Assembly: GCA_016211195.1 (NCBI GenBank)
Contig: JACQSS010000045.1
Location: 1-47,259, forward strand
Length of the DNA: 47,259 bases
Source of the DNA: Candidatus Woesearchaeota archaeon
Lineage (GTDB): Archaea; Nanobdellota; Nanobdellia; Woesearchaeales; JAGVYF01
Direction of reading: 5' to 3'
The notes beneath the pieces are model-generated. The model made no database searches. It had not been told where the DNA came from and worked only from the letters and a program-made list of their open reading frames with translations. Positions 11,468-41,073 of the stretch are shown here, piece by piece. The position numbers and the translations under genes are program-made. Position 1 is the stretch's first letter; every line of letters starts with the position of its first letter.

Positions 11468-11995
11468 TTATGTACATATCTTCAACGTCACTTCCAACAT
11501 CCCTGTTGTCGTCGGCAGAAGGTACGTCTGACTGTCGACTTCTGCAGTCGCGGGACAGCCACTTGCTGTTGTCACACCAACTGGTGGCTGTTTCATGGGA
11601 AAGTTAGGGAGAATGGTACCAGCCTGCTTTGCCATCAACTCATACCCCAGCTTCCATTTCCCGACGCTTTCCTTGAGGATATGGTTTTTGAGGACATCAG
11701 TGATATACTGGCATGACAGCTTCCCCTGACAGACCACGCTGCCTCCCTGAATCTGATTTTCAGCGCAGTCAATGAGAAGCTCTTCCAGCTTCGGCTTCTT
11801 AAAAGGGTCGCAGATAATGTCCGATGTTTTTAGCATTGCACTCAGGACATTATTGGCTATCTGCGCACGGTTGAGACGTTCCTTGAGTTTAGCGCTTTCT
11901 CCTGGTGTAGCAAAGCGCAGCAGGAAGAGAAAACCGAGAATGACAAGGACAATAATAATGGCGATGCCCAAAATCTCTGCCTGTCCTCTAGCCAT
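11468..11995 (-). CDS. Type IV pilin-like protein (class III signal peptide)
   Basis: The N-terminus is MARGQAEILGIAIIIVLVILGFLFLL: an R-G-Q motif followed by a about 20-residue hydrophobic helix. It is the last gene of the operon and overlaps the preceding gene by 8 nt. Confidence 0.65.
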   Translation of the reverse strand: MARGQAEILGIAIIIVLVILGFLFLLRFATPGESAKLKERLNRAQIANNVLSAMLKTSDIICDPFKKPKLEELLIDCAENQIQGGSVVCQGKLSCQYITDVLKNHILKESVGKWKLGYELMAKQAGTILPNFPMKQPPVGVTTASGCPATAEVDSQTYLLPTTTGMLEVTLKICT

Positions 11996-12467
11996 AGACG
12001 GTCACCTTCAACACACCAAAGACATATCTATCTTCTTCAGGGACGTAGACCGCAATGGGGGCTTGTGTCATTTCCTTGCTCACGGTCCCGGGCTTTATAT
12101 TCTCATAGAGTTTAACTTTCGTTTGTGGTGGGGGATAGACAAGCTCAATTTCTACAGTACTGTACCCAAGAATGCTGTAATAAAAATTCTTGTCATTCTT
12201 CATGACATCACTGGCTGCTTCAATCTTGGCCTTATCATAGCAATTCTCACGCTGGATGCCATCTTCAGAGCATTGAACTTCGGGCAGGTAAGCGATGCGT
12301 TGGGCAGTTTCTATGGCTGATTTGATACGCTGCTCCCGCACCTCTTCGCTGACCGTTCCCCGTTTGTATTGGACATAAAAAATAATGCCGAGGACAAGCA
12401 GGACTGTGAAAACAAGAAGAACTGCAATGTTTTCCCCCATTTTTATCTGCGCTTTTCTCATTGTCAA
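11988..12467 (-). CDS. Type IV pilin-like protein (class III signal peptide)
   Basis: The N-terminus is MTMRKAQIKMGENIAVLLVFTVLLVLGIIFY. It overlaps the upstream gene by 4 nt (12464-12467). Confidence 0.6.
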   Translation of the reverse strand: MTMRKAQIKMGENIAVLLVFTVLLVLGIIFYVQYKRGTVSEEVREQRIKSAIETAQRIAYLPEVQCSEDGIQRENCYDKAKIEAASDVMKNDKNFYYSILGYSTVEIELVYPPPQTKVKLYENIKPGTVSKEMTQAPIAVYVPEEDRYVFGVLKVTVYG

Positions 12468-13435
12468 TAAATCAGTGGGCAGGATTGCTGCTGGAGTTGC
12501 TGGTTGATTTTCCTCAAGGATTGCACACCTGTTACCTCTCCCCTCATCAATGCACCAAAGTCAGCATTATAGCTACATGTCGGTTTGTCCCGGACATTGC
12601 TTCTCAGGTAGTTCTGCTTTTTCATGTAAATCTGTGCAAGATTCCTGAGCCGTGCTGTTGCCTTGTTCACATTGCATTTATAGGTCTCCAATGAATCACT
12701 GAATATTGCTCCGAAGAGGAGCGCATTGCCTGTCGCAGGAAATGCTTCCTGAGAACCAGCAAAATTTTTCGTCAGAAAGGTGATAGTTGCATCATCTGAC
12801 TTTCCCTCCACGCGGAGGCCACTTATTTTCTTGTTGGCAAATGCTTGAGAGAGTGTTTCAGCTGGGGTATTCGCAAAAATAAATCGTGTCTGGTCGTGGC
12901 CAGTGGGCTTGAATGTACCTAATGAGCCGGGTGGCACCAAAATGCGAGTAATATTTTTGGGAATGCTCTCTTCCAGATATTTATAGAGGGGATCCTGAGC
13001 AAGTGCAACAAAAACATAAAGCACACTGGGGCTTGTGATAGAAATCATATTCGTGACATAGAAGGGGGCATTCCAGTCAAATGACCAGAGCCTCAGGCGC
13101 GTCGTGGTCACTGTTGAAGGGGCAAAAACAATCTTGTTCCGGTAGCTCTTTGCCTGCCCATCAACACTGAAATCTTCACAAGTGAAGTCAAGCTGCACTT
13201 TAGGCAAATCATCTATCGGAAGGAATGTTTTGGGGCTGACCTCAGTACTTGTCAAGAGCAGGTGCAATGTATTTGCGATGTCAATAGAAGCTTCGGCCTT
13301 CGATATCTTAAAGCCTTTAAACGCAAACATAATGAAAATCAGCAAAATGACTGAACCGGCAATAAGAGCAAAGACTAAGTGAAACGGGAGTTCTATCTGA
13401 CCTTTCTTTTTATGTTGTCTCAATACTGGTACCAT
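12464..13435 (-). CDS. Type IV pilin-like protein (class III signal peptide, KGQ-type)
   Basis: The internal ATG at 13435 gives MVPVLRQHKKKGQIELPFHLVFALIAGSVILLIFIMF. KGQIE resembles the EppA-type (DUF361) pilin signal. The longer track ORF to 13504 would overlap the upstream gene by 95 nt. Confidence 0.65.
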   Translation of the reverse strand: MVPVLRQHKKKGQIELPFHLVFALIAGSVILLIFIMFAFKGFKISKAEASIDIANTLHLLLTSTEVSPKTFLPIDDLPKVQLDFTCEDFSVDGQAKSYRNKIVFAPSTVTTTRLRLWSFDWNAPFYVTNMISITSPSVLYVFVALAQDPLYKYLEESIPKNITRILVPPGSLGTFKPTGHDQTRFIFANTPAETLSQAFANKKISGLRVEGKSDDATITFLTKNFAGSQEAFPATGNALLFGAIFSDSLETYKCNVNKATARLRNLAQIYMKKQNYLRSNVRDKPTCSYNADFGALMRGEVTGVQSLRKINQQLQQQSCPLIY

Positions 13436-13910
13436 CGCCTTGTCCGGTGAGGCGCAACACAATTCTGCCCCCTTTTGAGGGGATGCAGCTTGTGCCACCC
13501 TCAAGCTTCACTTTTTTGATCTTCAGGTTTTGCAGTGATGGGAGCAAGAAAACATTGTCTGTTTTTGCGGTGAGTGCATCACAGACAACAGGGCTCGTCT
13601 TTTGATCATAATTTTTTCCGTTGGGCTTGCAGAGTTCGGCGGTATCCTGTCCGGGCGCACGCTGCTCATCGGCGAAGCACACTTTGTCGACACCTTTAGG
13701 GACATCAAATTCTTCTATGCGGACAGACTCATATTGTGACGCGAGTGTTTCTATCTTTGCCTGCAGGCTTTTCTCAAAGCGTACAAGGGCAATTTCCTCT
13801 GCACGATTTTGCAGGCTCGCTATTGCCCGGTATCCATAGAAAAGAATCAGCGCAGTGATAAAGAGCGCAAGGATGTACAGCAAAATTTGGTCCATCATGC
13901 CTTTTTTCAT
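13410..13910 (-). CDS. Pilin-like small secreted/membrane protein
   Basis: The N-terminus is MKKGMMDQILLYILALFITALILFYGY. The ATG lies 2 nt after the stop of the 3037-aa gene, with GAGGT about 5 nt upstream, which indicates translational coupling. Confidence 0.6.
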   Translation of the reverse strand: MKKGMMDQILLYILALFITALILFYGYRAIASLQNRAEEIALVRFEKSLQAKIETLASQYESVRIEEFDVPKGVDKVCFADEQRAPGQDTAELCKPNGKNYDQKTSPVVCDALTAKTDNVFLLPSLQNLKIKKVKLEGGTSCIPSKGGRIVLRLTGQGDGTSIETT

Positions 13911-13912
13911 CG

Positions 13913-16900
13913 TTACCTCAGGTGGAGATGGAACAAGATGTCTGCTATGTCTTCTGCAAGCAGGACGTTTTTCTTCTCCAGCTCCACGAGAATAGTGGAT
14001 GCATCCTCTGTCGTCATTTTCTTGTGGTGGAGCAGATATGCAAGCAGCACTTGCGTGACATGGTAATCAATGCGCTCATTCTTGGGTAATGCGCTGATGA
14101 AATCAATGATGTCCTGTCGCGTGATGGTCTTCTTCTCCTGTAGTTTCTTTATTTCTTCATGGACAGTCTTCCGGATTTCTTCTTTTTCTGTTGCAGACAA
14201 CATCTGTTTGGCGAGATTCTTCTCTGGCTCGACCTTTGGATGGGTTACATTGCGCAATTCCTCGTAGCTTACTGGCTTTGGTTTTTCCCTGTCAACACCA
14301 GACTCTTTCGCCAGTTCATCAAAGATTTTCTCCTTAGGGATGTCTTCCTTGGGCACAGCGATGAGTTTGTGGAACTGCTGCCGCTCGTCCTGCTTGATAA
14401 TCTCGTCAAGGCGTGCAAAGACATCTTCCCTGCCTAACTTCGTGAGCCGGGTGAAGACATCAGTCATAAGCGGCGTCCTTTCAACATATTTCTTCTCCAG
14501 CACCAAGGGAGTCACTTTTTCCTTGACTTCGGCAGTCGGACGTTCTGCCGGCTTTTCAAAGCCAGCAAACAATTTCTTCCGTTCTTCTTCCCGCTGCGCA
14601 AGGCGTTGCCGGATCTCCTCACGCCGCTTCTCCTCGAGGTACTGCTTTTGCTCATCCAGCCGACGCTGGGCTTCGAGTGCCTGCAGATTCTCTGTTGCCA
14701 ATGTTTCGGACGCCCGCTCCACTTTTGGCGGCTCGTAATAATATTTCTTGTACACCAGATAGCCAACGCCGGCTGCAATCAGAAGCAACCCGAAGAAGAG
14801 CAGGACCAACGGCAGCACTTTTGTTGGTTTCTTTGCTTCACAGCCAGTCTCATCAACCAGGATTCCTGCCTCAGTCGCCGGACATTTGTCTGTACTATCA
14901 GGAACGCCATCACCATCTGTGTCCGCCTCTGGCTTGGGACAACCAAAGTTATCCTTGGGCCCGGACTGATCTGGGCACTTGTCCTCCAGATCAGGCACCC
15001 CATCCACATCACGGTCTGCAGCACGCTGGGCGTCGCTGCATCCTTTCGCATCCACAGTCTCACCGGTCAGCGTGTCTGCACAGATATCTGTACTGTCTGG
15101 CACCCCGTCCTGATCAGTGTCCTTGACTTTCTGCACATCAGAACAGCCAATGAACGCCCCATCAACGTCAACAACGTCGCCAGCGGCAGTATTAGCACAT
15201 TTATCAGCCCAATCGGGGATGCTGTCAAGGTCAGCATCAAGGAATGCCAGCTGTTTTGTGACCGGTGCTGTGACGCAGTTCCCCAGTGTATCACAAGCAA
15301 TAACACAAATTGTCTTTGATGCTGAGACTTCAAGAGGGCCAGTGTAAGCAAGAGTAGGCGTACAAGAGGTGTCGCTGGATAAGCCATATTTGATGGTTGA
15401 GGGATCACAACCAGTGTCATCCTTGCAGATGACGCCCACAGATATGCCACGAGGAGTTTGTTTGACATCAATGGATATCTCGGGTGGCTTTGATTCAAGA
15501 CATTGTTGCGATCTGTTCCCATAGACAACAATCGGCTCAGAAATGAGTACCTGGCTCGTCCGATTTAACTTGTTGCGGGCTGCGACCGCAAAGACATAAG
15601 ACTCGCCAACGCTGAAGTTGAGCCGGCTCAGGAAGACTTGTGACGACACACTATTAGTATCTGGAATAATGAACTGTGACCGGTCAACGGTTGCTATGGT
15701 ATAGATGTAACTGTCAATGTCACTCTCATTATCGGCGCCGTTGAATGTCGCAGTCATACTGTACAGCCCAGTCCGTTTATCCGGGCAGCTGGCATTGGAG
15801 ACGGTCAACGCATTAAGGACTGGCGGGGACAGGTCCAGGATGAACGAGTGGGATGCTGTCTTTTCTTGCAGGCGTGCGCCAAAAATATCGGAGAATGATT
15901 TGCATGTTGCGCTCCCGGAATATCGGCCTTCAGGCAGGACGCCCAAATCAAGCGTGTGGTCTTTTTGGTTGCCTTGCATGGGCTGGGTGCCATTGAACGC
16001 ATAGGTGCATTCCGCATCTTTATTTGTTTTTACCTTGACAATGACACGCGCATCACCAATAACAGCCTGTGGCTCTTCAAATGCGACGGTCAACTCTTGA
16101 TCAACCAGCGTAAAGGATATCTGCCGATTCCCTGCCCGATTGCTTGCTGGATCTTCGCAATTCACATTATAGGTGTGCACCCCTGCCTCGACTGTCGGCA
16201 GCGTAATCATCTGCTCATGCGCCAGCTTGTATGTGTTCCGCTTTAATGCATCTTCTGTTGCAAAAAAGGCCATCTGGTCATAATTCGTCGAGGTCTTGCT
16301 GTATTTGCAGACAGTCACTTCATCTGTCTCGACTTTCAATTTTGTCTGTAGAGGCTGCTGGATAATCATCGCTGGATCCGCCACTGCTTTGGTGATCTGC
16401 GGAGCACGGCCATCGACAGTCAACGCAAAAGTAGCAGTCATGTCTTTCAGACCATCATTGCATTTCACATAAAATGGAGTCGCCTGCGTCGCAGAGAACT
16501 GGCTGAATCCCGGGATGCGATGCACAAGTTTCTGTTGGTCAAGACCGGTTTCAGTAAAACGCGTGTAGGCACCAGTTGCAGAGAACGCATAAGAGCACGT
16601 CGCATACCGTGTGGTCGCTACTTCAATGTCTGTCGGGATAGCTGTTGCTGCTCCATGCCGCGGCTTTACAAGGATAATTTCAGTGTCATTTGCCTGTAGC
16701 TGGAACGACAATTCACTGAATGACCGTTGCGCATTGCCGAGAACGTCTTCAGCCTTGATCTGGAACGTGTACTGCCTGTTCACCAGTGGCTGCTGCACCA
16801 TGAAGCGGAATGTCTGATTATCTGTGGTGCTTGATGCAAAGGTCACTGCTGCATTTTCCTTGAGACTAACGGCCAGTATCCGCACCGGCTCATTATAGCT

Positions 16901-19900
16901 GACAGTGAAGACAGGTAGCGGCGTCTTTACCTTGCCATTCTCAAGATCGCTGACCGTGATAACTGGGGGTGATGGTGGCTGCTTATCTGACACGAGTTTT
17001 GCGATAAAGATAATACTGTCGCCGGTTTCCTGATCCTGACCTGTAAAAGTGACAAAATTAGGGACAGTCTCACCATCAATGGACACCAGCCTGATGGGTA
17101 ACGAGAACCTGTTATTAACGAGAGGAACCGGCTGAAGCGTCTCCTTGAAATATTGCAGGCTCAGCACTTTGTTGGCAGTTCCTTCTAACGTCACGCGGTC
17201 ATCATTATCACGGACATGATAGAAGATGTCTTCTCCTACGGTGAATGAGATGACTCTGTCTGCAAGAACCCGCGTTACTTCTATGCCGGGGACGATGTTA
17301 TCTATTTCAATTTCACCAGAGAGCTGCTGGAGATTGTCAACAAGATCACGGAGCGTTACTTGAATTGGGATTTTGACGCCATGCGGAACGTCTGCGGGAA
17401 TAGCGAAATCATACGCGTACAAGTCTTGTGCGGTCCTGCTCATGCCAACGGTTTGTGCTGGGGTCACAAATGTTTCGTTGATGCGATATGCACCTAAAAG
17501 CAATGATGCATTTACATCACCTCGTTCATTTGCCACTCGGGCAATAATACGTATTGTCCGACCCGAACGCGCACGGCGTGGGAAATCAAGGGAAAAAGAT
17601 GGAGATGCTTTATCCACGACAAAGGTAAAGTTCCACTTACCGGGCGCTGCTTGTCCCAGCAGGAATGCCTCGGCCTGCAGACTATATTCTCCATCTGCCA
17701 GAGCCCGCAGTTGGCCACTGAATCCTCGTGGACCGCCAGCAATCGTTGTCTGGTCAATGACATTCTCTGCCAAGGGAAGCTTGATGATGACGTCCTGCGA
17801 AAAGTTGAGATGGACTGCTGCAGGGGTATCTTTCACATACCATTTGTTGTTGACCTTTTTGCCTGAAGGGATAGAGAAGACTGGCGGGTCTGGCGTATTG
17901 GCAACAAAGTAGAACGTGTAGTTATAGTCGAGTTGGTTGCCTGCGGAATCATTTGCCCTGACCATGACATCATAGCGGGGCTGATTGAACGTGTCCCTGT
18001 GGGAAAGGCTCTGCACAACATAGTCCTGATTTTCCGTATCGGAGATCGCCTGTGGCGCCTCAATGAGCCGAACACCGTTGACATAGACCCTGAAGGACTC
18101 TATGCCTGACCCGGCTTTCAATTCCCGAATCTTGACGGTCAAAACTTGACTGGGGTTTCCAATCGTTCCTTCAATCGGGACATAGTCAATGAGTTCTGGC
18201 GGAGTGTAGTCGTAAAAGATGCTATGGACTGGGGTGAATGGTGTCGGATTGAACGGTGTCTGATAGGCATTCAGGCGCAGATAGTTATACGTGTTACTGA
18301 GATTGATGGACCCAGTGAATCGATCAGGTCTTCTTGGTTGGTCAAAGACTGAGATAATCTTGTTGCTGAACACTGGTGCCTCAAGTGCTGGAGAGACATC
18401 AATAAGCGTCGTACCACCGGAACGTTGCACATTTGTTATCCTGTAGAAGTCTTTGTAGGGGGGATAGCTCCGGAAATGACCTCCCGAGGTATCATTGACG
18501 TACAGGAACTCGACAAAGTGGTCCGTGGAAATGGGCAGTTCCTGTCGCAGCTTGACAGAAGTAGCACCCTGCAGCGTGTCAATGTCGATAGTGGGCTGCA
18601 CCAGCACGTGCGTTTCTGGTTCACGATACACGTGGACGAGGCGCTGCTGGTCCGGGAACAAGCCAAGATAATAATTGACGTACATTTCCTGCAGTTTCGT
18701 ATAGCCTGGCATGATGGGCTGCGCACCATTAGTGTAGTAGATGCCACCCTTCAGGTTCATATACGTTGCTATGGGCGGATCAAAGGTAGGAGGGTCCGCA
18801 ATGCGGGTATCAATGCGGAAGTCGCGTCCCTGCGTGATCGCTACACCAGGCACTCTGTTCTGGTCAAATGCACGGATGCCAAACTGGGCGGGAGCATTGA
18901 CATTCCTGATATTGAACAATGCAAGCTGCGCATGCCATTCTGTCTTCTCGATGTTGACAGGATATGGTGGCGTGACATTGAGGAGGCTTACTGTCCCATT
19001 GGGATACGTAAAGAAGAGCTCAGTGATGTTCATCAGGGGTTCTGATGCTGTAATGTTGATGATGTAATTCGGCGGGAAGAGGCGGGTGACAGTCGTAACG
19101 ACATGGGGTGTAGGCAGGATGTCAAGTATCGAGAAGATGAATGACGGCGGGGTTCCATCAATGGATGGGATGACAGTTTGGGCTGGCTCTTTATTCCCCC
19201 CCTTGTCAATGGAATAGAAGGTCAAGGGTGTTGTCGTGTTGAGGATGATAGAACTGCGGTATTCAGTTGTCGCGTTGCAGCCAAGGCCTAGGCAAAAGTA
19301 TGTTTTGGCGCAACCGAATTCCCAATGGAAATTATTTTCCACAAGCTCCGGATCCCTGCATGACAGCTGGAAGCTTGTTTGTCCACGGAGGAATTCCCCG
19401 TTATAGTTAACGGTTGTCCGGGGAGGGACCATGTCCACGGCAAAGCGTATGCTACTGGCATTACCACGGATCTTGTTCATGCGGGGGAAAAAGCATCGCA
19501 CAAAATACACTTTGCTTGTCTGGAGGCCGGGAACAAAGACGCGGCTCGTGTGCTTTATTTTCTCGCCATCGGCAAAGGACACAAATGTAAAGTTCATCCG
19601 CGAAAAGTCATTGGTGCTGTCTGAATATTTGCATGTTGCTGGCTCTGGTGTCCGGACAGACAGCTCAATGTTTTGGTTGAATGCAAGGGTCATATTAGGT
19701 AATGGGTCTGTGACACTCTGATCGCCCCGCACAGTGATGCGCTGCTGACCTGTCTGCAAGTTTCCTGCACGGTCAATGCATTCGAAGGCAAAGACATAGT
19801 CATCGTCCGGCAGTCCTGCATATTGGACAGTATGCTGGGTAATGGGAAGATTTCGCAACCCCGTATTAAGCACTGGCTGCAAAATGGTATTTTCACGCGT

Positions 19901-23026: not shown

Positions 23027-23082
23027 CTCCTCACCATGCCTTTTTTCTCGACGCTAAACCGGAGAAGTCAAAAGCATGAGGG

Positions 23083-23090
23083 TATTTAAA
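23083..23090 (-). promoter_or_regulatory. Internal TATA box (minus-strand TTTAAATA) ahead of the 3037-aa gene
   Basis: It sits in the 80-nt gap between genes. This is the same 8-mer as at 31857-31864. GGTGAGGAG lies immediately upstream of the ATG at 23026. Confidence 0.45.
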
Positions 23091-23105
23091 GCTATTGGTG
23101 AGTCC

Positions 23106-25634
23106 TTATGATTTCTGGCACTGGTCAGTACAGAAGCGCCCATCACGGGTGTCAACTGTTCCGGGAGCAACGCCATTACATTCTATAGTGGTGCATTGGC
23201 ATTCATCAGCATAGGTACATCCACCAGCACCATCACATCGTGCTTTACAGACAAGGAACTCATTTCCTGTATTTGTGTCGTACGTATTCGGCGCACCCCG
23301 TGCACTAGCGGGCCTGAGATTTGTATTGCAGAACCCAGTTGCGGTAGGGTCCTTCATGAACGTCTTTTCAAGCGTGTCGCCGGGCTTGTAGGGGAAGCAG
23401 CCGCTGGTCCCTTTGTCAAAACAATTGTCTTTTGTCACGCCCGCCGGACCAAAACAGCGCTCAGTCTGCCCCTGTGCAAGGTCATCTCTGCATGCCTCTT
23501 TGAACGTAATGGTATAGTCAGCCAGCCCCCCACAGATATTTCCTCGATTGCCGGAGCATCGTTGCGCAAAAGAGAGTTCGTAGATGTCATTTTCATCCTG
23601 AGGAGTTGGCGAATTGACTGTCATCGTCGGCTGCTGGCTGAACGGGTTGACAGCACCACTGACATCCACCTGCACGGCGTGGACTGCCTTAGACGAGTCA
23701 AAGCCGGGCAGATTTGGGCTACAGATAAGTTTTTGTGTGCCATAACAGACTTTGCTTGGCGGGCTGTAGCTCCCCCAATTCTCGACACGCTGACCCATTG
23801 CCACTTTCTGTCCCTCATAAGGGTCACCTTCACAACAGACATGCGGTGCATAAAATGAGTCTCCCTTTGTGAAGGGATACGGGGGATTAGCATCGGGGTT
23901 TGACGGATCATAATTCTGGACGCCAGTCTGCGACGCATTCGCGTCCCAATGGGGGAGACACTGAAAGACTTTAAGTTTGTCAAAGTCGAACTCGAACTGA
24001 CCCCCTTTGAACTTGACACGGTCGCCCGCAGCGGTAAACGGTTGAAGACGAATGGTCGCAATGGACGGATTTGGTGGCATAATAAATTGTGGCCGGTCCG
24101 TTTTATAGACTTGATAGGGTTGCTGGCCAAACTGGCTGAACAATCTCCATTCGAATTCCTTCCCGCAGTCCCAAAAGATACAACGCACGATTGCTTCGAG
24201 GACAAAGGGGTCTTCAATGGACGCAAGGTTTGGTGGCAGGTCATGATAGATGCTCTTCCCCGTGAGGTTAAAATAGGGCTTGTCCCGGACAAAGACAGTG
24301 ACGTCTTGATAATCTGTCATATTCTGCCTGTCAGAGACACTAACGCGAACGACATGCCTGCCGATGTCTGTATGCGTCATAAAGATGCTCGCATTGCGTA
24401 ACGTCTGCTGATATAGGGCAGATTGTGTCCAGTTGCGCACAGTCTCTGGTCTTCGTTGGACGCATTGCTGAGGATTTGTCCGGAGATACGGGCAGTTTTC
24501 ATCAAAATGCTCGGCATAGTCTTCCTGCCAGAAGCCATATGAGTAGTGCACGGGTGCTTCTTCGTCAGGGTCGATGCCCGACGGATGGAGCTTGAGCTCA
24601 TTGTTCTCTTCAACCAGAATATCGTACTCAAAGAAGGTAGGACCTGTTTCGTGAATCCATTCAAGTGCCGGAATACGGTTTTCACGGCTGAACTGGAAGA
24701 GATAGGGCTTACCATCAAGGTTAGAGAGAGTATCAGATAATGCAAGAATGTCATCAAAGACCTGCCCTTTGCACGTGGGGCACGCATTTTGCACTTTGTG
24801 CAAGACAAAACCCCCCTTGAACTCGGGCAGAGAGGAACCATCTTTCAACGGATCGAAGTAGGGATTGACACTATCCTGCTTGATGAGTGCCTTGGCAAAC
24901 TCATGGATTGCTTTCAATCGGACAGGAACTTTTATTGAAGAGGTGAACAGGTCTGTCTGTCGTTTTTTGTCTGCTGTTGCAAAGGCAATGGGATACTCCA
25001 TGCTACTGGTCACGTCAGTATTGCCAATGGTGATATTTGCCAGCAAGGGGGCAATGGCGTGTGCCTCTCCCGGCAGTGAAGTAAAATTAATGCATGTTAT
25101 TGTCTGGTTAACAACATACGCAGTCAGTTGTTGCTGGAGTGACGTGGCTATTTCATAGCTTTCACACGGACGATAGAAGGCTGTCGCATTGAGGCGATTC
25201 GGACCTGAAGGATCACAGAGACCGTGCAGTTGGTCCCGGCCATAATAGGGAAAATCCATCTTATCCAACCTCCCAGCATAGGGATAGGCAGGAACCGGTG
25301 CCGGTGGATAGGTGGGGGAATACGGCGGTTCACGCAGGCCATACGCAACGGGGTTGTTGAAGAAGAGGAGTGTGGCATCTTCCCGCCGGAGCAACGGCAG
25401 ATAGCCGCCATGAAGTCCAATTTTAGTGAGCCCATCCTTTGTGCTCTTCTCAAGACAAGATTGGATAAGTGATTTGATAACCAGATATGTTTCAGTATGC
25501 GCAGCGCTGGTTTCTGTCTCCTTCGCTGTCTGCTCCTTGACTGAGGACGCAACGAACAAGAGGAAGAGGACACTGATTGCAAAGACAATTCCAAGAAGCA
25601 CAAAGAGTGTCAACTGTGCGCGTTTCGCGTTCAT
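23106..25634 (-). CDS. Large (842 aa) pilin-like protein with class III signal and Cys-rich C-terminus
   Basis: The N-terminus is MNAKRAQLTLFVLLGIVFAISVLFLLFV. It matches the KRGQLTLFSILGIMLLLFV start of gene 45869-46639, and the following ...IKSLIQSC.. / ..IKAFVDSC.. segment is shared. The ATG overlaps the stop of the 2062-aa gene by 4 nt. Confidence 0.75.
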   Translation of the reverse strand: MNAKRAQLTLFVLLGIVFAISVLFLLFVASSVKEQTAKETETSAAHTETYLVIKSLIQSCLEKSTKDGLTKIGLHGGYLPLLRREDATLLFFNNPVAYGLREPPYSPTYPPAPVPAYPYAGRLDKMDFPYYGRDQLHGLCDPSGPNRLNATAFYRPCESYEIATSLQQQLTAYVVNQTITCINFTSLPGEAHAIAPLLANITIGNTDVTSSMEYPIAFATADKKRQTDLFTSSIKVPVRLKAIHEFAKALIKQDSVNPYFDPLKDGSSLPEFKGGFVLHKVQNACPTCKGQVFDDILALSDTLSNLDGKPYLFQFSRENRIPALEWIHETGPTFFEYDILVEENNELKLHPSGIDPDEEAPVHYSYGFWQEDYAEHFDENCPYLRTNPQQCVQRRPETVRNWTQSALYQQTLRNASIFMTHTDIGRHVVRVSVSDRQNMTDYQDVTVFVRDKPYFNLTGKSIYHDLPPNLASIEDPFVLEAIVRCIFWDCGKEFEWRLFSQFGQQPYQVYKTDRPQFIMPPNPSIATIRLQPFTAAGDRVKFKGGQFEFDFDKLKVFQCLPHWDANASQTGVQNYDPSNPDANPPYPFTKGDSFYAPHVCCEGDPYEGQKVAMGQRVENWGSYSPPSKVCYGTQKLICSPNLPGFDSSKAVHAVQVDVSGAVNPFSQQPTMTVNSPTPQDENDIYELSFAQRCSGNRGNICGGLADYTITFKEACRDDLAQGQTERCFGPAGVTKDNCFDKGTSGCFPYKPGDTLEKTFMKDPTATGFCNTNLRPASARGAPNTYDTNTGNEFLVCKARCDGAGGCTYADECQCTTIECNGVAPGTVDTRDGRFCTDQCQKS

Positions 25635-28600
25635 TGGACAACAGGGAGAAGGGGATTTGCTTCTGTCAACCGGACAGTGACAGGGAAGGGCACGCGCAAT
25701 TGACGATTATATTCATCAGTGCATTGGACATAATAGGTGTAAGGTGACAGATAGACATTCTGGCAAATATTGCGGGCGCAGTAGTTCGGGTTCTGGGACA
25801 CTGCAGCACGGCACATGGCCCCCCGGAAGCTGCTGATAATAGCATCGCATTTGGTGATGTCACGCGCCTGGATGGCCAACTTGAAATTGGTATCATCAGG
25901 GTCAGTTGTTGGTACGTTTTGGCCATTTTTGATGGGGAGATAGTTCTCATTGAATTCTTTATTGCAGCTATCTTTCTCCTGGAGATTAATAACATTGGAA
26001 CATCTGTTCGTTGTCGTACCAACGCTGACACATGCCCAATACCGTGCATTGGTAGAAGTCCGTATTTCAGTCGGATTCTCAGGAGGTCCGATAATCTCAA
26101 ATCCGCTTGCATCATTGGCGCAGGTGGCTAATTGTACATCTGTTTTGGGCTTCAATGACAATGGTGTCCGGTGAGCCCGTCGGTCTCCAGAGAGCATCAC
26201 TTGGCCGTTTGTCAGCCCGCCAACATCGGACACAGCCACGCACGTCGCAATTCTTGAGGTGTTGACATGGAGCTCAAAAGATAAGGAATTCAATCTCTCG
26301 TCGGATGCCGGAGAAAAGTCCACCACATTAATCCGGATATTGTCATATGTAAACTCAAGCCGGTACGACTCCTGCATGGCATTGCCAAAGGAGTCCTTGC
26401 ACCGGAGATAGAGAGTGTTTGCTCCAATGGCAGCATTGATGACTCCCGTGTGGATGAGAGCCGCTCCATCAGCAGTTGAGCTCATTTCATCAAATGGCTT
26501 GTCCTCTGGTCCATACTTGCACGTTGCTGCTTTGTCTGTGGTCATATTCAAAATGGTATTCACAATGACTATTGTCCCATTTGCCGGGAATGTTGTCATA
26601 ATCCGAGGACCTGCAGGAATGAGTGGTTCTGCATCATCACCGTCCTGGATGCCGTCATTGTCTGTATCCTGATTTTTCGGGTCTGTGTGTTTAATGTATT
26701 CGTCCTTATTTTTCAGTCGGTCATTGTCCAGATCGCCATCTCCATCTGCAGCATTCTTTGGATTGAACCCGTAATAAAGTTCCCAACCATCCCCCATGAG
26801 ATCTCCGTCTGTGTCTTCTTTAATGGGATTCGTGCGGTGCGTATTGATTTCAGTCAGGTCATTCATCTCAGTGGTCTTGAAACTATCTCCGTCTGTGTCT
26901 GCCAATGTCGCATTGGTGATGAAACCCATTGTGCCCTTTATCTCCTCCGGATCCAGTATCCCGTCCTTATCCGTATCCCGGTCTATGGGACTGGTGTGAT
27001 GAGTGTTGGCTTCTTCACCATCAGATAAGCTGTCCTGATCGCAATCTGTCACAAACTGGCATCCTTTTGGCTCAATCCGGTCGAGCAGGCCATCATTATC
27101 ATCATCATCATCAATGCACATTAGGTCAGTGGGTGAGCTACAATCTGCTTTGAAGCCAGTGCTGGAATCTTTCGCCTGTCTGCCCGGCAGGAAATCGTCT
27201 GGTTTCCCGTCCCCATCATTGTCATGGGCTACTGCTTTGTCTGTCGGGAATTGATCGAGATTATTCGGAACGCCATCCTTGTCGGAATCCAATTCGCACA
27301 GGTCCCCAAATCCATCACGGTCATTGTCTTCCTGACCAGGATTTGCAATCAGCCGGCAATTGTCGTCACATCCTGTTGTCTGCCCGGGGGTGCATGGATG
27401 GTTCCCTTCTATAAAGTCGCTGTCGCCTGAGTCAGGGACATTATCACCATCATCATCAGCATCACATCCATCTGGTGTTCCATCCCTATCTGCATCCACG
27501 ACACGGTGTGTGAAGTCATTGATACAGATAGTCCGTGACACCGTTGATGCTTTGCCATTAAGTCCGATTGTCAGTAATCCAATTTTGTGGAAGCCTTCCT
27601 TGCGTTTGAACAGCACATTGACGTCCTGTTCAACAAGATTGCGTCCGAATACTTCACCTTTGACGTCTGTCCCTAATTGGTCAAGGTCCCAATAATACGA
27701 TTGGACAGAAGGATCTTCCTGAGCACGCAAGGTGAACTTTGTGGTTGTTGACAGCTTTTCCCCTTCCTGCGGCACGAGCATGACTGCTAATGGTCGACTA
27801 CCGCTGATCTCCTTCTGGAAGAGCCGTGACTTGGCTGTTGCATCAAGCCAGACCATAAACCCGGCCTGTTCAAAGGAGGTCACAATATATGTGGGCAATT
27901 CCTGCTCCGCTGCCAGTGTCGGCGTACATTGCAGAACCGAGAATGTGCTGACGCCTTGCACTTTGCTGCAGATATCAACAGTGAAGTTGAAGAAGTTGAC
28001 ATTCAGATAGGGTTTGGTGAATTCAACAACCTCTTCGACACCAAGGATGGACCGTGGCTTGTTATGCGCAAGGTAGATGCGGTTGAACTGCCGTAGGCTC
28101 TTGAGGAAATCTCCCTGCAACTGTCCTAGTGTCCCAATGGCTTCCTGCCTGACTGGTCTAATGACACGCATGATAACGTCAACGATTGTTTGGATGGGGT
28201 GGCTAAAGAACTGCCAAAACAAGGCTTTCCCATCCAAGGGACCAATTCCGTCAATGCCAAATTCTGTATACAGTGCAAGGCCCGTGACATTGTTATACCA
28301 TAACCGGTTATCACCGGACTTGCATTGATGGAACAAACCGTCATCATCAGTCCCGTCTGCACACGTTTCAATAGTAGGTGCCTGATGTGCATTGAGAATA
28401 GTGATGAATTTACCCATGTTCGCGGTGTGGGGGGTATTCAATGATGTTCCGATGAGCGAGCGTTCTGCAGTGCCTTCCTTATAGCGCAGCACACAGAAGT
28501 TATTTGCACCAGCATCATTTGCAAGGAAAGACAATGCAGGTTCATATTCAACATGGTTGAGCGCTTGTGCATATTCGTCACAGAAGAGAACATAATCATC

Positions 28601-31600
28601 GGCTGACTTTGCCTGAGCAACAGCCAGCATTTTCATAGCCAGATACTTGGTGCGTGTTGTCCAGTTTCCGTCTTCACAATAGGAGTCAGCTTCGATATAG
28701 CCCGTATCAACACATCGCCGGCCATTCCAGCATTGACTGTTGCTGAGGCAGTAGCCCTGCGCCGTTGCATCGCCTTGTGACCTATTGTCCGGTCGTTCCT
28801 TGTAATAGGTTTGTTTCCATGTGGCGACTGCACCTTTTGCTGAGACCGTTACCTTCCCCTTTGGCGTTGTGCTGTCAAGACCAATGGAGAACTGGCCGGG
28901 TGCGTCGAATGTTTTCTCAACTGAATGGCCCCCATCAACTTCTATGTCAAAGAAGCTGCTGACCAGCCGCCTCTTTGCGGTGTCTGCATTATCCCATTTG
29001 ATACGGTCTCCAGGCTCAATAGCCACGTCACGCGGGGTGAATGCACTGCCTTTTATCTGGACGGAAATTGTCTTTCCTTCCCGAACTGGCAATGTAGCCA
29101 TACACACGTACTGGTCAAAGGGATTGCCACGCCGGAAACCGAAATGCTTGGTGAATGCTGGCGTGAACAAGCCGTAGGTCGTCTGCTGCGCCGGACCGTT
29201 GAGGGACAAGGTCTCCGGAACGCCTTCAACACAGGACAGGCCATTCCAGCAATAATTACTAGGACAGCATCCCTGCTCAAAGAATGCTGCATCAGTCGTA
29301 TTGTAGAAAAGCGTCAATTCAGCAAGCGTTGTCTGGGGAACGCTGCCACCTGTGTCTCTGTCTGCGGCGCTGAATTTTGCACCTGCCTCGTCGCTCCATT
29401 CACCCACTGCAATCGGGGCTTTCTTATACGAACAGAAGAATTTCCCTTTCACTGTACAGAATGGGGCATTCTGGACGATTGGTTTCTTGTTGAATGCTTT
29501 CGTGTCGCACCCATAGAACGTACTATTGAAGAACAGGACCTGTAACGGGATGTTATCAGCACGCACTTGTGCAAGCTCAGAACCCGGTTGCCTTCCCGGT
29601 GTATACGGAATCTGGATGGGTTGCACTGTCCCACGTTCAACAAAGCGGAGGTCATAAATGTCCGGGTGCAGATTAGCGACCTGTGGCCGGCCGCTTCCGG
29701 GAACGGGATACTCACATGAATGTGTCGTACAGAATTCAGTCTGCAACTGGCCGCCTGCAGTGAATTCAACATTACCTACCCTAAAATTGCTGGCAATCCG
29801 GTTTCCAAGCCAGCAACCAGCCTGGGAATCAGCATAGTACTCGGGACTATCCCGTGTGCTGTCATCACCACAGCACTGCTCCCCTGTCCAACCATACCCG
29901 GGTGTCTTGTCACAGGCAGTTTTTCCTGCAGGGATATCATCACCACCCGGCGCATTGTAGTCAAGATCATCTATCCACAAGTTCGGAAGATTGGTGGGAT
30001 GATAGAATGAACCAGAACAGTATTTTGTCTGGCCCCCAGTGAGGAAGACACGATCAATACCTATTGCGTTATAGACGCGTTGATTCTTGAACGTGAAAAT
30101 ATTGCCAAATGACTTGGCATCGCCCTCCTTGGAGAGGAATACAACGCCTTCAATGTTCCTGAGGTTACTGGTACAATCGCTTAAGGGGATGCTGACGTGC
30201 ATCCATTTATTGAGACTATGGCCATTGCCGACATAATCCTTTGCCGGCAGCCTGCAGAGGACACATTTTCCCTTGTACTTGTCACTGGCAGTGCACTGTG
30301 TGCCACCAACAAGGGCAATATCAAGGATGTAACTGTTTGGTACATTGATAAAGAAGTCAAGCGAACTGTAACGACTCCAGTCATTGATTTCGTGTTCTGC
30401 TTTGTTGCTTGTCTTTGCCGGAGAACTGTCGATAAAGAGCGGCTGCGAATAATACGCGTCAGTACCAATCTGCTCGTCTGCTGCACCGACACGCTGCACA
30501 AAAGTCTTGACACAATTTTTTCCTGCGGGACATGGGGTACCATCTGCAACATTAAAGTCTGAAATGCTTGTTAATGGTTCTCCAACAGTACGCAATTTTG
30601 GCGGCGGATTATCGCAGGCAACCCCATTACAGCATTCTGCAAATGCACCTTTATTGTCTTCATTATAGCAGATGAACCGTGCTGCCTTGTCCTTGTTTTT
30701 CAGGGTGCGCGTGACCTGTGTGCATTTCTCTTCCCCTTCCTTGTCATCACAGCCCTGATCAAGCCCGTCTCCGCAAGGGTCAAATGCATTGGGATGAATA
30801 CTGGCATCATTATCATTGCAGTCATTATCTTTGGTGAACCCATCGCCGTCCTGATCATCTGGTGTTGGCACAGTGCGGTTGACGCTGGGCAGGAAGTCGT
30901 CAATGTCATTTCCTTTACTCCCCCCGCCTTGTGTTCCACCAAGAGAGAACTCCGGTTCTGTCGTGGGCAAGCCGAGGCGCTGCGTGGAACTCAGCAGTCG
31001 GGCAGTGGACGGCGCTGCAAGCCCCTGGCCATCGGCAGTCTTACAGAGCCACCATTGTTCTGTATTTGAGACAACATCATAGAAATGCGTTGTTTTGCCA
31101 CCATCAATGCCGCGGTCCATGGTGAATATTTTGTATGGGATGGCAGTCTTACTTGCGGATTCAGAGACGGTAGCTTTCAGCCATTCCCACTCCCCATCCA
31201 GACCGGCTTTGTTCCTTGTGCAAAGGTCAACATCCGCGTATGTGGTCCCTGCATCTGACTTTGTTCCTGATGGTTTTCCGCCAACACGGTTATCGAAGTT
31301 TCCGCAACATTTATTCCTGCTTGGAGCGCTGGTCAGAAAGACTTTATCGGCGCGAGTGAAATCTGTTTTCTTATCAGGCTGCCCGTCGACATTATCGTCA
31401 ATGCTGGTGACACATCGTTTAGGATGGACTTCTGGAGAATAATAGGGGAAACGACAGGAAAGCCATTGTGCACCGGATGTGCACGCTTTTCCCACAAGGT
31501 TTTCGCAATCGCCACATGCAAGCGGTGGGGGTGAATTGAAGCCACCCGGTCCATCACTCAAGACCGCATAATAATCATCAGGTAATGCACATGCATCTTT

Positions 31601-31813
31601 CAGCACACCTTTGTTATCGAGGCAGCTGGCCTGACACGTCACAACAGTCGCTGTTTTTGAGCCGGGATTTGCCTGTGAAATGCCAACAGGTTCCCCATCA
31701 TCAGTTGTTTTCAGGATTTCTATTTTGCATGTTGACGGGTCAAGGGATTGGGCTGATAATGGGAACGCCAGAAGGAGAAAAACAACTGCACACACCAGCA
31801 AGCTTCTTTTCAT
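25631..31813 (-). CDS. Giant (about 2060 aa) secreted Cys-rich Ca-binding-repeat protein, no membrane anchor
   Basis: The track start at 31819 is TTG. The ATG at 31813 gives [23 protein letters not shown], with GGGG 6 nt upstream. It has a MopE-like putative metal-binding Cys motif ([25 protein letters not shown]). A canonical thrombospondin type 3 repeat ([26 protein letters not shown]) and many DxDxDG repeats occupy about nt 26620-27520. The C-terminus has Ig-like Cys-pair modules and no C-terminal TM. Confidence 0.9.
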   Translation of the reverse strand: [2060 protein letters not shown]

Positions 31814-31856
31814 TGACAACCCCTTTTAAGTAGACGTGAAAAAGAGGGTTGGCCGC

Positions 31857-31864
31857 TATTTAAA
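31857..31864 (-). promoter_or_regulatory. TATA box (minus-strand TTTAAATA), likely promoter of the 20-kb surface operon
   Basis: The centre at 31860.5 lies about 47 nt upstream of the ATG at 31813. The predicted leader of about 20 nt carries a GGGG SD. Confidence 0.5.
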
Positions 31865-35772: not shown

Positions 35773-35793
35773 ACGGTGCAGCTCGGATAAAGC

Positions 35794-35801: not shown

Positions 35802-35805
35802 GGTA

Positions 35806-41051: not shown

Positions 41052-41073
41052 GCGGTGCAGAATGTGCAGAAGA

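What the first reader, a model, noticed from the sequence alone, without database searches (positions are those of the whole stretch)
11468..31864. 20-kb eight-gene operon couples two giant Cys-rich Ca-binding surface proteins to five class-III-signal (pilin-like) proteins
All eight minus-strand genes are joined by overlaps or tiny gaps: 25631/25634 (4-nt overlap), 13910/13913 (2-nt gap with SD), 13410-13435, 12464-12467 and 11988-11995. The only real gap (23027-23105) carries a second TTTAAATA box. Five products start with [KR]-[GA]-[QM] followed by a about 20-residue hydrophobic helix: KRAQLTLF.., KKGMMDQIL.., KKGQIELPF.., RKAQIKMGENIAV.. and RGQAEILG... That is the architecture of archaeal type IV pilin or EppA-type substrates. 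The first gene product (about 2060 aa) has a Sec-type signal but no anchor. The 3037-aa product has a C-terminal TM helix and a 278-aa cytoplasmic tail. A plausible reading is a dedicated adhesive fibre or tethered-adhesin apparatus, in which minor-pilin-like subunits present or hold an anchorless giant adhesin. No assembly ATPase (PilB/ArlI-like) or platform protein (PilC/ArlJ-like) is in the window. I know of no described system with this gene order.
Basis: partly seen in the sequence, partly recalled or inferred. Interest (0 to 1): 0.8.

Follow-up and report, generated by a model that had tools for sequence, protein, structure and literature searches.

The report
Woesearchaeal pilin-like genes with giant adhesins
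This is a seven-gene cell-surface cluster from a tiny DPANN (Woesearchaeota) archaeon that joins five pilin-like proteins to two giant calcium-binding adhesin-like proteins; it is conserved across the lineage, carries no annotation, and is a good candidate for how these uncultured cells attach to others.

Summary
The observation largely holds, but there are seven minus-strand genes, not eight. They have two TATA-like promoters, one serving G1-G2 and one serving G3-G7. The two giants (2060 and 3037 aa) are Cys-rich and carry thrombospondin-type Ca-binding repeats.

Five products start with [KR]-[GA]-Q (Met in G4) followed by a hydrophobic helix. This is the processing motif of EppA-type archaeal prepilins (Methanococcus Epd pilins: RAQI, KGQV, KGQI). 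Across 23-86 homologues per family the motif is K-K-[G/A/S]-Q, with Gln 100% conserved in three families.

AlphaFold2 gives G7 a confident pilin-like lollipop (pLDDT 90.6).

The order G2-giant-G4-G5-G6-G7 recurs in about 90 Woesearchaeota/Nanoarchaeota loci. It is usually followed by tandem small candidate major pilins, which this window lacks. The G5 family alone has 1653 representative clusters and no Pfam model.

No pilus ATPase or platform gene is linked in the window or in any related locus.

Best reading: an Epd-like type IV filament minor-pilin and adhesin module, assembled by machinery encoded elsewhere. It is a new variant of a known kind.

The parts
31857..31864 (-). TATA-like box (TTTAAATA) 44-51 nt upstream of the G1 start
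   Evidence: TTTAWATA occurs only 10 times in the window, and nine of the ten lie 29-70 nt upstream of gene starts.
25631..31813 (-). G1: a 2060-aa secreted giant without an anchor. It has a Sec-type signal, 3.6% Cys, thrombospondin type 3 Ca-binding repeats and a MopE-type motif.
   Evidence: The family is conserved in 21 loci.
23106..25634 (-). G2: an 842-aa class-III-signal protein (MNAKRA|QLTLF...). It has a long N-terminal helix, an alpha/beta domain, Ig-like beta domains and a Cys-rich C-terminus.
   Evidence: Gln at +1 is 100% conserved, Thr at +3 82% and Phe at +5 82% in 23 homologues.
23083..23090 (-). Second TATA-like box, in the 79-nt G2-G3 gap; a GGTGAGGAG Shine-Dalgarno-like motif precedes the G3 ATG
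13913..23026 (-). G3: a 3037-aa giant. It has a Sec signal, an N-terminal 'GCC' Cys-rich region, CarboxypepD_reg and Big_13 domains, TSP3 repeats, a C-terminal transmembrane helix (about 2733-2761) and a charged cytoplasmic tail of about 276 aa. It carries 38 N-glycosylation sequons against 23 expected.
   Evidence: The family is found in 46 loci and is split into two genes in L009 and L010.
13410..13910 (-). G4: a 166-aa class-III-type protein (MKKG|MMDQIL...)
   Evidence: The family consensus is K-K-[A/G]-Q..GQ.F (n=58).
12464..13435 (-). G5: a 323-aa class-III-type protein (..KKKG|QIELPF...)
   Evidence: There are 1653 representative clusters at E<=1e-3, with no Pfam or PDB match.
11988..12461 (-). 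G6: a 157-aa class-III-type protein (MRKA|QIKMGE...); an alternative TTG start lies at 12467
   Evidence: Gln at +1 is 100% and Glu at +6 98% conserved (n=69).
11468..11995 (-). G7: a 175-aa class-III-type protein (MARG|QAEILG...) with six Cys (five of the positions conserved across the family); the predicted fold is a pilin-like lollipop
   Evidence: Gln at +1, Glu at +3 and Gly at +6 are 100% conserved (n=62-64). AlphaFold2 pLDDT is 90.6.
40146..41210 (-). A24-family prepilin peptidase (354 aa, six hydrophobic segments). It is the candidate processing enzyme and lies 8.3 kb upstream of the cluster.
   Evidence: Peptidase_A24 at 32.5 bits against a cut-off of 26.5. By eye, the sequence shows YDSRKQIIPN and YGGDAKL motifs that resemble the two catalytic Asp motifs. 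The orthologue in L011 is the divergent neighbour of the cluster.
45869..46639 (-). A sixth class-III-type protein (256 aa, MKRG|QLTLF...), paralogous to the N-terminal 320 aa of G2
   Evidence: BLASTP E 6e-12. It has its own TTTATATA box 23-30 nt upstream.

Best explanation
The cluster encodes the non-motor part of an Epd-like (EppA-type) archaeal type IV filament system in a Woesearchaeota-type DPANN archaeon.

Proposed mechanism:
1. G2, G4, G5, G6 and G7 are made as prepilins with 4-12-residue basic leaders.
2. They insert in the membrane through their hydrophobic N-terminal helix and are cut after [KR]-[G/A] by the A24 peptidase encoded at 40146-41210, leaving Gln at the new N-terminus (Met in G4).
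3. The four small proteins, always in the order G4-G5-G6-G7, act as a minor-pilin set that forms a tip or priming complex through their N-terminal helices.
4. G2 is a large pilin-like subunit that carries Ig-like and Cys-rich domains.
5. The co-conserved giants G1 (secreted, no anchor) and G3 (membrane-anchored, with a cytoplasmic tail) are Ca-stabilised, disulphide-rich adhesin modules that this complex displays or tethers. This parallels bacterial minor pilins with PilY1.
6. The filament body would be built from small major pilins (about 85 aa) that follow G7 in most relatives but are not in this window. Assembly would use an ATPase and platform encoded elsewhere.

Shown: the motifs, the conservation, the synteny, the presence of the peptidase gene and the predicted G7 fold.
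Inferred: cleavage, filament formation, any pilin-giant contact, and a role in adhesion.
For: 1. Motif. [KR]-[GA]-Q lies directly before a roughly 20-residue hydrophobic segment in G2, G5, G6, G7 and the 256-aa paralogue; G4 has Met at +1. Family-wide profiles give K-K-[G/A/S]-Q, with Gln 100% in G2 (n=23), G6 (n=69) and G7 (n=62), 74% in G4 and 33% in G5. Conserved acidic residues follow: Glu at +3 in G7 (100%) and G5 (80%), and Glu at +6 in G6 (98%).
2. Match to known sites. The motif has the same form as the EppA processing sites of EpdA-E (RAQI, KGQV, KGQV, KGQL, KGQI), where Gln at +1 is required (PMC4371748).
3. Pattern of similarity. The families align with each other only over the N-terminal 30 or so residues, as pilins do.
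4. Fold. AlphaFold2 of G7 with a 54-sequence alignment gives pLDDT 90.6: helices 3-29 and 31-56, then two helices and a four-stranded sheet. G2 has a helix at 3-74, but the model is weak.
5. Peptidase. An A24 peptidase scores above the Pfam cut-off in the window. In L011 an A24 + Arc_PepC + PMT_2 fusion sits directly next to the cluster.
6. Synteny. G5 is followed directly by G6 in 64/74 loci. G7 lies within three genes in 61/65. G4 precedes G5 in 56/80. A giant precedes G4-G5 in 31/63. G2 lies upstream of the giant in 13/19. Tandem small class-III genes follow G7 in 36/47 (examples).
7. The giants are conserved families, not passengers, and carry TSP3 Ca-binding repeats.
8. Literature precedent. 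At least five minor pilins, two large adhesin-like proteins and small major pilins encoded elsewhere are described for archaeal clade 1. Pilin loci without ATPase or TadC are also known (PMC4858521). System 1 is reported in DPANN (10.64898/2026.04.22.720090).
Against: - No match to any pilin family in Pfam or NCBIfam at E<=1, or among 100 G5-family members.
- No PDB match by profile.
- Foldseek with the confident G7 model returns no hit at E<=1e-3 and no pilin in the top 50.
- The G7 head is alpha/beta. From my own knowledge, the solved archaeal pilins have all-beta Ig-like heads.
- No T2SSE-type ATPase or TadC-like protein in the window or within 10 kb in about 100 related loci.
- One preprint states that type IV pilus components are missing in DPANN genomes (10.1101/2020.05.14.094862).
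- The A24 peptidase is adjacent to an HxsD-HxsB-HxsA-like module in both loci that have it, so it may serve that module. It is linked to the cluster in only 1 of about 90 other loci.
- G4, G5 and G6 were not modelled, and the G2 model is poor (pLDDT 60.8).
- No contact between pilin-like proteins and giants was tested.
Confidence: 0.6

Rival explanations
1. Envelope-scaffold reading. The cluster builds the cell envelope rather than a filament. G3 is an S-layer-like or stalk protein anchored by its C-terminal helix, and G1 is an outer canopy protein. The class-III-type proteins are processed membrane-proximal subunits that anchor or organise this layer. Sulfolobus bindosome proteins similarly carry class III signals without forming a classical pilus.
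For: - G3 has a signal peptide, a C-terminal transmembrane anchor and more N-glycosylation sequons than expected (38 against 23).
- Glycan-synthesis genes (deacetylase, DegT aminotransferase, GT28-like glycosyltransferase, acyl ligase) lie between the cluster and the peptidase.
- The cluster appears once in each locus examined, in a conserved housekeeping neighbourhood (Metallophos, TYW1, Tmk) across distant relatives. This fits a core envelope component.
- It is never linked to an assembly ATPase.
- Makarova et al. annotate the large C-terminally anchored proteins of archaeal pilus loci as 'S-layer-like' (PMC4858521).
Against: - G3 homologues range from about 1000 to more than 4700 aa and are split or fused between lineages. 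This is more typical of modular adhesins than of a lattice protein.
- A cytoplasmic tail of 139-283 aa is, from my own knowledge, not typical of S-layer proteins.
- Conserved Gln at +1 and Glu at +3 or +6 in the helix N-terminus, and tandem small pilin genes next to G7 in most relatives, point to filament-type assembly.
Confidence: 0.2
2. Pseudopilus reading. The small proteins form a short type-II-secretion-like piston or priming complex: four minor subunits, one of them about 330 aa as with GspK, plus a major subunit encoded elsewhere. Its job would be to export or release the giant proteins G1 and G3 through the envelope, not to adhere.
For: - A fixed set of four small subunits, with one of about 320-360 aa, always follows the giant.
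- G1 has no anchor and must be released or held by something.
Against: - G1 and G3 have ordinary Sec signals, and from established knowledge archaea have no outer membrane to cross.
- No ATPase or platform is linked.
- No similarity to Gsp pseudopilins was found: the only GspG hit is a chance-level match in another protein.
- The size parallel with GspK is recalled from memory and was not tested.
Confidence: 0.1
3. Plain signal-anchor reading. The five proteins are ordinary type II membrane proteins with an uncleaved N-terminal anchor. The [KR]-[GA]-Q motif only reflects the positive-inside rule, and the peptidase in the window serves other substrates such as the HxsA-like peptide.
For: - No pilin-family match was found.
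- By the strict FlaFind pattern as I recall it, only G2 and the 256-aa paralogue pass, because G4-G7 have a charged residue at +3 or +5.
- The peptidase is genetically tied to the Hxs-like genes.
Against: - A 100% conserved Gln directly after a small residue, and invariant Glu and Gly inside the start of the helix, across sequences that share about 25% identity, are not explained by topology rules.
- The same motif recurs in six unrelated families encoded side by side.
- The motif equals experimentally verified EppA sites (PMC4371748).
Confidence: 0.1

Closest known systems
Epd pilus of Methanococcus maripaludis (archaeal type IV filament 'clade 1' / 'System 1'; EppA-processed pilins)
   Same: - The processing motif has the same form: [KR]-[GA]|Q-[IVL], with a conserved Gln at +1 (PMC4371748).
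- Several minor pilins are encoded together.
- Large adhesin-like proteins sit in the locus.
- Small major pilins, with tandem paralogues, are often encoded elsewhere (PMC4858521).
- System 1 is reported in DPANN (10.64898/2026.04.22.720090).
   Different: - No sequence similarity beyond the signal region, and no Class_IIIsignal Pfam hit.
- The acidic residue is at +3 or +6 rather than +5.
- The giants carry TSP3, CarboxypepD_reg and Big_13 domains, not DUF2341.
- No ATPase (EpdL) or platform (EpdJ/K) is in the locus here or in any relative examined.
- G3 has a transmembrane anchor and a cytoplasmic tail.
Pyrobaculum/Thermoproteus type IV pilus loci (clade 4G) described by Makarova, Koonin and Albers 2016
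   Same: - Two large proteins, one with a C-terminal transmembrane domain ('S-layer-like') and one with a signal peptide only ('adhesin or minor pilin').
- Several small minor pilins.
- Components rich in conserved cysteines (PMC4858521).
   Different: - Those loci include the ATPase, TadC and a MinD-like ATPase.
- The lineage is Thermoproteota.
- No homology to those families was tested or detected here.
Bacterial minor pilins with the PilY1 tip adhesin (P. aeruginosa FimU-PilVWXE/PilY1)
   Same: - A set of four or five minor pilins is co-encoded with a large Sec-secreted, non-pilin adhesin.
- From established knowledge, PilY1 binds Ca, and the minor pilins prime assembly and display it at the tip (cited in PMC4858521 as Nguyen et al. 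2015).
   Different: - This is an analogy only. No PilY1 or DUF2341 domain was found.
- The domain of life differs, and there are two giants rather than one.
- No interaction was tested.
Sulfolobus bindosome (class III signal peptides on non-pilin surface proteins)
   Same: Large proteins with class-III-type signals (G2 at 842 aa, homologues up to 1065 aa) show that the signal is used on more than simple pilins.
   Different: Bindosome subunits are substrate-binding proteins, and no such domain was found here. The bindosome has its own linked ATPase and platform.

Membership tests
Archaeal type IV pilin-like protein with class III (EppA-type) signal peptide | A short basic leader ending in [KR]-[G/A], then Gln at +1, then a hydrophobic segment of about 20 residues at the extreme N-terminus | tested here: met
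   All five cluster proteins and the 256-aa paralogue fit, except that G4 has Met at +1 in this window; Gln is at +1 in 74% of its family. Reference sites come from PMC4371748 Table 1.
Archaeal type IV pilin-like protein with class III (EppA-type) signal peptide | Cleavage by an A24-family prepilin peptidase | not testable with these tools
   The gene is present (Peptidase_A24, 32.5 bits against a 26.5 cut-off; the Asp motifs were seen by eye). Cleavage itself cannot be shown.
Archaeal type IV pilin-like protein with class III (EppA-type) signal peptide | Lollipop structure: an N-terminal alpha-helix of about 50 residues followed by a globular head with a beta-sheet | tested here: met
   For G7 only: AlphaFold2 pLDDT 90.6, helices 3-29 and 31-56, then two helices and four strands. 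G2 has a helix at 3-74 but the model is poor. G4, G5 and G6 were not modelled.
Archaeal type IV pilin-like protein with class III (EppA-type) signal peptide | Detectable sequence or fold similarity to a known pilin family | tested here: not met
   Pfam and NCBIfam at E<=1 gave no pilin family. The same held for 100 G5-family members. PDB profile searches found nothing. Foldseek with G7 gave no hit at E<=1e-3.
Type IV filament system (complete) | A PilB/ArlI-type assembly ATPase and a PilC/TadC-type platform protein | tested here: not met
   Absent from the window and from the flanks (up to 10 kb each side) of about 100 related loci. Presence elsewhere in the genome could not be tested.
Type IV filament system (complete) | A small, abundant major pilin | tested here: inconclusive
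   None in the window. Tandem class-III genes of 80-130 aa follow G7 in 36/47 related loci. Abundance is unknown.
PilY1 / DUF2341-type pilus tip adhesin | A PilY1 C-terminal propeller or a DUF2341 domain | tested here: not met
   Pfam on G1 and G3 found only TSP_3, MopE, CarboxypepD_reg, Big_13 and CHB_HEX_C_1.
Thrombospondin type 3 Ca-binding repeat proteins | DxDxDGxxD-type repeats that match TSP_3 | tested here: met
   G1 scores 28.6 bits on TSP_3 against a cut-off of 25 and has six DxDxDGxxD motifs. G3 has three such motifs. PDB matches include COMP, thrombospondin-2 and an OmpA-family protein with TSP3-like repeats, 5wtl.
Archaeal S-layer-type protein | A signal peptide, a C-terminal membrane anchor, heavy N-glycosylation, and the ability to form a lattice | tested here: inconclusive
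   G3 has the signal, the anchor and a sequon excess. Lattice formation and abundance are not testable. Size variation and the cytoplasmic tail argue against.

The most novel reading that the evidence does not exclude
This is the lineage-defining attachment organelle of Woesearchaeota. In this reading a pilin-helix bundle (G2, G4-G7), never genetically linked to a pilus motor, would be permanently coupled to two giant Ca- and disulphide-stabilised adhesins. One of these, G3, spans the membrane and reaches the cytoplasm through a conserved tail. The structure would then be a trans-envelope tether or conduit to the host cell rather than a conventional extendable pilus, and might assemble without a dedicated type IV ATPase.
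Probability: 0.15. Interest if true: 0.85.

Novelty: new variant of a known kind. Interest (0 to 1): 0.55.

Why it matters
No Woesearchaeota isolate turned up in my searches, so how these abundant DPANN archaea hold on to other cells remains unknown. One survey even states that type IV pilus components are missing from DPANN genomes (10.1101/2020.05.14.094862).

This cluster shows that the lineage carries a deeply conserved set of EppA-type pilin-like families with no Pfam or NCBIfam model. G5 alone has 1653 representative clusters at 50% identity. These families are hard-wired to giant adhesin-like proteins.

The finding gives concrete gene targets for annotation (new Pfam or arCOG families), for metaproteomics, for cryo-ET interpretation, and for testing how minor pilins present large adhesins in archaea.

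Tried and rejected
- Pfam and NCBIfam on all five small proteins and on neighbours found no pilin family.
- Foldseek with G7 against the PDB returned only low-TM ribosomal uS3-like hits. With G2 it returned only generic tandem Ig or cadherin hits, from a weak model.
- PDB profile searches with the G2 and G5 families found nothing.
- hhalign between families aligned only the N-terminal helix, so the families are not detectably paralogous in their heads.
- I tried to walk further along contig L019 to look for an ATPase.
- Recurrent neighbours of about 610 aa and about 300 aa looked like candidate ATPase and platform genes. From reading the sequences, without a domain search, they resemble a Ser/Thr kinase and a PhoU/AbrB-like protein, and others resemble PEP carboxykinase and an aminotransferase.
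- All P-loop proteins in the flanks look like SRP, Tmk, MCM, MinD/ParA or RadA types, judged from their Walker-A context by eye.
- I considered the arCOG01314 'novel secretion system' of Makarova 2015 (PMC5898192). It was rejected because its vWA, MoxR and GldG-like components are absent here.
- Literature searches for a description of this cluster in Woesearchaeota or DPANN found none. That is not proof of absence.
- Cluster-member look-ups gave no organism names beyond 'Candidatus Woesearchaeota'.

Full report
**What is in the window**

The region 11468-31864 holds seven co-directional minus-strand genes, not eight:
- G1, 25631-31813, 2060 aa
- G2, 23106-25634, 842 aa
- G3, 13913-23026, 3037 aa
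- G4, 13410-13910, 166 aa
- G5, 12464-13435, 323 aa
- G6, 11988-12461, 157 aa (or a TTG start at 12467)
- G7, 11468-11995, 175 aa

The single 79-nt gap carries TTTAAATA at 23083-23090, and a second copy sits at 31857-31864. TTTAWATA occurs only ten times in the whole window. Nine of the ten lie 29-70 nt upstream of a gene start, so these are real archaeal promoter boxes. The cluster therefore more likely forms two transcription units, G1-G2 and G3-G7.

Cdc48, TYW1 and other neighbours show an archaeal host. Related loci come from Candidatus Woesearchaeota and 'Nanoarchaeota' MAGs.

**The giants**

G1 has a Sec-type signal and no other hydrophobic segment. G3 has a signal, a transmembrane helix at about 2733-2761 and a tail of about 276 aa rich in Glu, Lys and Leu. 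Both contain 3.6-3.8% Cys.

G1 matches Pfam TSP_3 and MopE above their cut-offs and has six DxDxDGxxD motifs. G3 has CarboxypepD_reg, Big_13 and three TSP3-type motifs. PDB sequence matches are to COMP, thrombospondin-2 and an OmpA-family protein with TSP3-like repeats, 5wtl. 'Cys-rich Ca-binding surface proteins' is therefore a fair description.

Both giants are conserved families, not passengers. G3 relatives occur in 46 fetched loci and G1 relatives in 21. G3 relatives keep an N-terminal 'GCC' motif just after the signal peptide, the C-terminal anchor and a cytoplasmic tail of 139-283 aa. In L009 and L010 the N-terminal and C-terminal halves are separate genes.

**The five pilin-like proteins**

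A scan of all ORFs for [KR]-[GA] followed by a hydrophobic 20-mer finds the five cluster proteins and one more real gene. That gene is a 256-aa protein at 45869-46639 (MKRGQLTLF...), which is homologous to the first 320 residues of G2.

None of these proteins matches any Pfam or NCBIfam family. Their relatives tell a clear story. Profiles built from 23-86 independent homologues per family give K-K-[G/A/S]-Q directly before the helix in every family:

| Family | Gln at +1 | Other conserved positions |
|---|---|---|
| G2 | 100% | Thr +3 82%, Phe +5 82% |
| G4 | 74% | Phe 93% further into the helix |
| G5 | 33% | Glu +3 80% |
| G6 | 100% | Glu +6 98% |
| G7 | 100% | Glu +3 100%, Gly +6 100% |

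The form [KR]-[GA]|Q-[IVL] is the same as the processing sites tabulated for the M. maripaludis Epd pilins: RAQI, KGQV, KGQV, KGQL and KGQI. Those pilins are cut by the dedicated peptidase EppA, which requires Gln at +1 (PMC4371748).

Between families only the first 30 or so residues align, which is the usual situation for pilins.

AlphaFold2 on G7 with a 54-sequence alignment gives pLDDT 90.6. The model has a helix from residue 3 to 56, kinked at 30, followed by two helices and a four-stranded sheet. Topologically this is a pilin lollipop. Foldseek finds no PDB match at E<=1e-3, so the head is not a recognisable known pilin head.

G2 models poorly (pLDDT 60.8). It shows a 70-residue N-terminal helix, an alpha/beta domain and Ig-like domains.

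**The peptidase, and a complication**

The window encodes an A24-family peptidase at 40146-41210 (32.5 bits against a cut-off of 26.5).

It sits next to an HxsD-like gene, HxsB (422.8 bits against a 370 cut-off) and an 80-aa His/Ser-rich HxsA3-like ORF with its own TATA box. The same four genes occur in locus L011. There the peptidase is fused to Arc_PepC and PMT_2 domains and is the divergent neighbour of the pilin cluster.

So the peptidase is present and is once directly linked to the cluster. It is equally tied to an HXS-like module, which in bacteria is an antiphage system (PMC13128918). It is found next to the cluster in only one of about 90 other loci.

**Conservation**

- G5 has only six word-indexed relatives, but an exhaustive profile search finds 1653 representative clusters at E<=1e-3. 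All are about 320-360 aa and match full length. None has a Pfam hit.
- G7 has 57 relatives. The only names given are 'hypothetical protein, Candidatus Woesearchaeota'.
- Individual look-ups show the same order in close and distant genomes. Examples are 2050-838-3055-181-335-158-190 aa and 993-1212-989-159-352-164-170 aa, plus a 1.0-Mb contig with 378-2008-168-327-151-167 aa followed by the same Metallophos, TYW1 and Tmk genes as in the window.
- A census of 86 non-duplicate loci gives the following:

| Arrangement | Loci |
|---|---|
| G5 directly followed by G6 | 64/74 |
| G7 within three genes after G5 | 61/65 |
| G4 directly before G5 | 56/80 |
| A giant before G4-G5 | 31/63 |
| G2 upstream of the giant | 13/19 |

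In 36 of 47 loci with enough downstream sequence, G7 is followed by one to four tandem genes of 80-130 aa. These have the N-terminus KKAQGISLNVIIIAAIAL... and a small Cys-rich tail, and further class-III-type proteins follow them. They look like major pilins. The window has none.

**What is missing**

No PilB/ArlI-type ATPase and no TadC-type platform protein is present in the window or within 10 kb in any of about 100 loci. Candidates by size or by P-loop looked like housekeeping proteins when the sequences were read; no domain search was run on them.

Pilin loci that lack the motor are known in archaea, and the ATPase/TadC module is said to evolve independently of the pilin sets (PMC4858521). 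One groundwater study states that type IV pilus components are missing from DPANN genomes. A recent census reports several systems in DPANN. I could not scan a whole genome, so this stays open.

**Interpretation**

The best-supported reading (confidence 0.6) is an Epd-like, EppA-type type IV filament module. In it, G4-G7 are a fixed minor-pilin set and G2 is a large pilin-like subunit. G1 and G3 are the adhesin-like cargo or anchor. The major pilins and the motor are encoded elsewhere.

The motif, conservation, synteny, peptidase gene and G7 fold are shown. Cleavage, filament formation, pilin-giant contact and adhesion are inferred.

Rivals:
- An envelope or S-layer scaffold, confidence 0.2. 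It is supported by the G3 anchor, the sequon excess, the nearby glycan genes and the housekeeping context.
- A secretion pseudopilus, confidence 0.1.
- Plain uncleaved signal anchors, confidence 0.1. The invariant Gln, Glu and Gly positions argue against this.

**Comparison with known systems and novelty**

The closest known systems are:
- the M. maripaludis Epd pilus (clade 1 / System 1);
- the Pyrobaculum/Thermoproteus clade 4G loci, with two large proteins and Cys-rich minor pilins;
- by analogy only, bacterial minor pilins with PilY1.

The cluster works like these. It fails the tests of sequence or fold similarity to known pilins, and it has no motor in cis. I therefore file it as a new variant of a known kind, made of families that are widespread and unannotated.

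I found no paper that describes it.

Interest is moderate to high (0.55). It is not a new principle, but it is a concrete, lineage-wide candidate for the cell-contact apparatus of an uncultured major archaeal group.

Noticed in passing
window 37801-41210 (minus strand): An archaeal HXS-like module sits next to the prepilin peptidase. It comprises A24 (40146-41210), an HxsD-like gene (39707-40123; 38.9 bits, below the cut-off of 50), HxsB (38076-39554; 422.8 bits against 370) and an unannotated 80-aa His/Ser-rich ORF (37801-38043; HxsA3-like, E 9e-7, with its own TTTATATA box 23-30 nt upstream). No HxsC is adjacent. The same four genes occur in L011 at 2144-7246. In bacteria HXS is an antiphage system in which HxsA is N-terminally processed (PMC13128918). 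The link to an A24 peptidase may mean that this peptidase processes HxsA here.
   Followed up: partly
L019 12601-13557 and 16216-16479; L020 12467-13024; L009 22322-22830; L011 after 19311: Tandem genes of 80-130 aa follow G7 in 36/47 related loci. They have the N-terminus KKAQGISLNVIIIAAIAL... and a six-Cys, defensin-like tail, and more class-III-type proteins follow them. They are candidate major pilins. They are absent from the window and have no Pfam match.
   Followed up: partly
window 41074-42681 and 42605-44662 (minus strand): Two paralogous secreted proteins (535 and 685 aa) share 42% identity over their C-terminal 345 residues. The larger one has a long Gly-rich low-complexity stretch. 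Neither has a Pfam or NCBIfam match. They lie between the peptidase and the sixth pilin-like gene.
   Followed up: partly
window 44730-45815 (+): A TnpB-family RNA-guided endonuclease gene (NF040570, 171.7 bits) is inserted among the surface-protein genes. The 386-aa ORF on the opposite strand is probably spurious.
   Followed up: partly
window 31937-37798: A block of glycan or modification genes lies between the cluster and the peptidase: a polysaccharide deacetylase-like protein, a radical SAM protein, a DegT/PseC-like aminotransferase, a GT28-like glycosyltransferase, an AMP-dependent ligase-like protein and a GNAT/FemAB-like protein. The first four are also upstream of the cluster in GCA_023264635.1 (L006). 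They may modify the surface proteins.
   Followed up: partly
window 54-3935 (+): A 1293-aa ORF with no Pfam or NCBIfam match lies upstream of Cdc48.
   Followed up: no
L013 (CAYHWM010000052.1): A contig labelled 'uncultured Methanosarcinales archaeon' carries the typical G2-giant-G4-G5 arrangement of Woesearchaeota. This suggests a mis-binned or mislabelled contig.
   Followed up: no
L024, L025, L028, L050, L052, L080, L082, L086, L088: In one subset of relatives, G5-G6-G7 plus small pilins has no giant directly upstream (and mostly no G4). Instead it follows housekeeping-looking genes on the opposite strand that, by eye, resemble PEP carboxykinase and an aminotransferase. The small-subunit module can therefore be separated from the giants.
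   Followed up: partly
window 10882-11322 (minus strand): A 146-aa ORF directly downstream of G7 has its own TATA-like box at 11392, no signal peptide and no family match. It is absent at this position in relatives, where Metallophos follows G7 directly, so it is not part of the cluster.
   Followed up: partly
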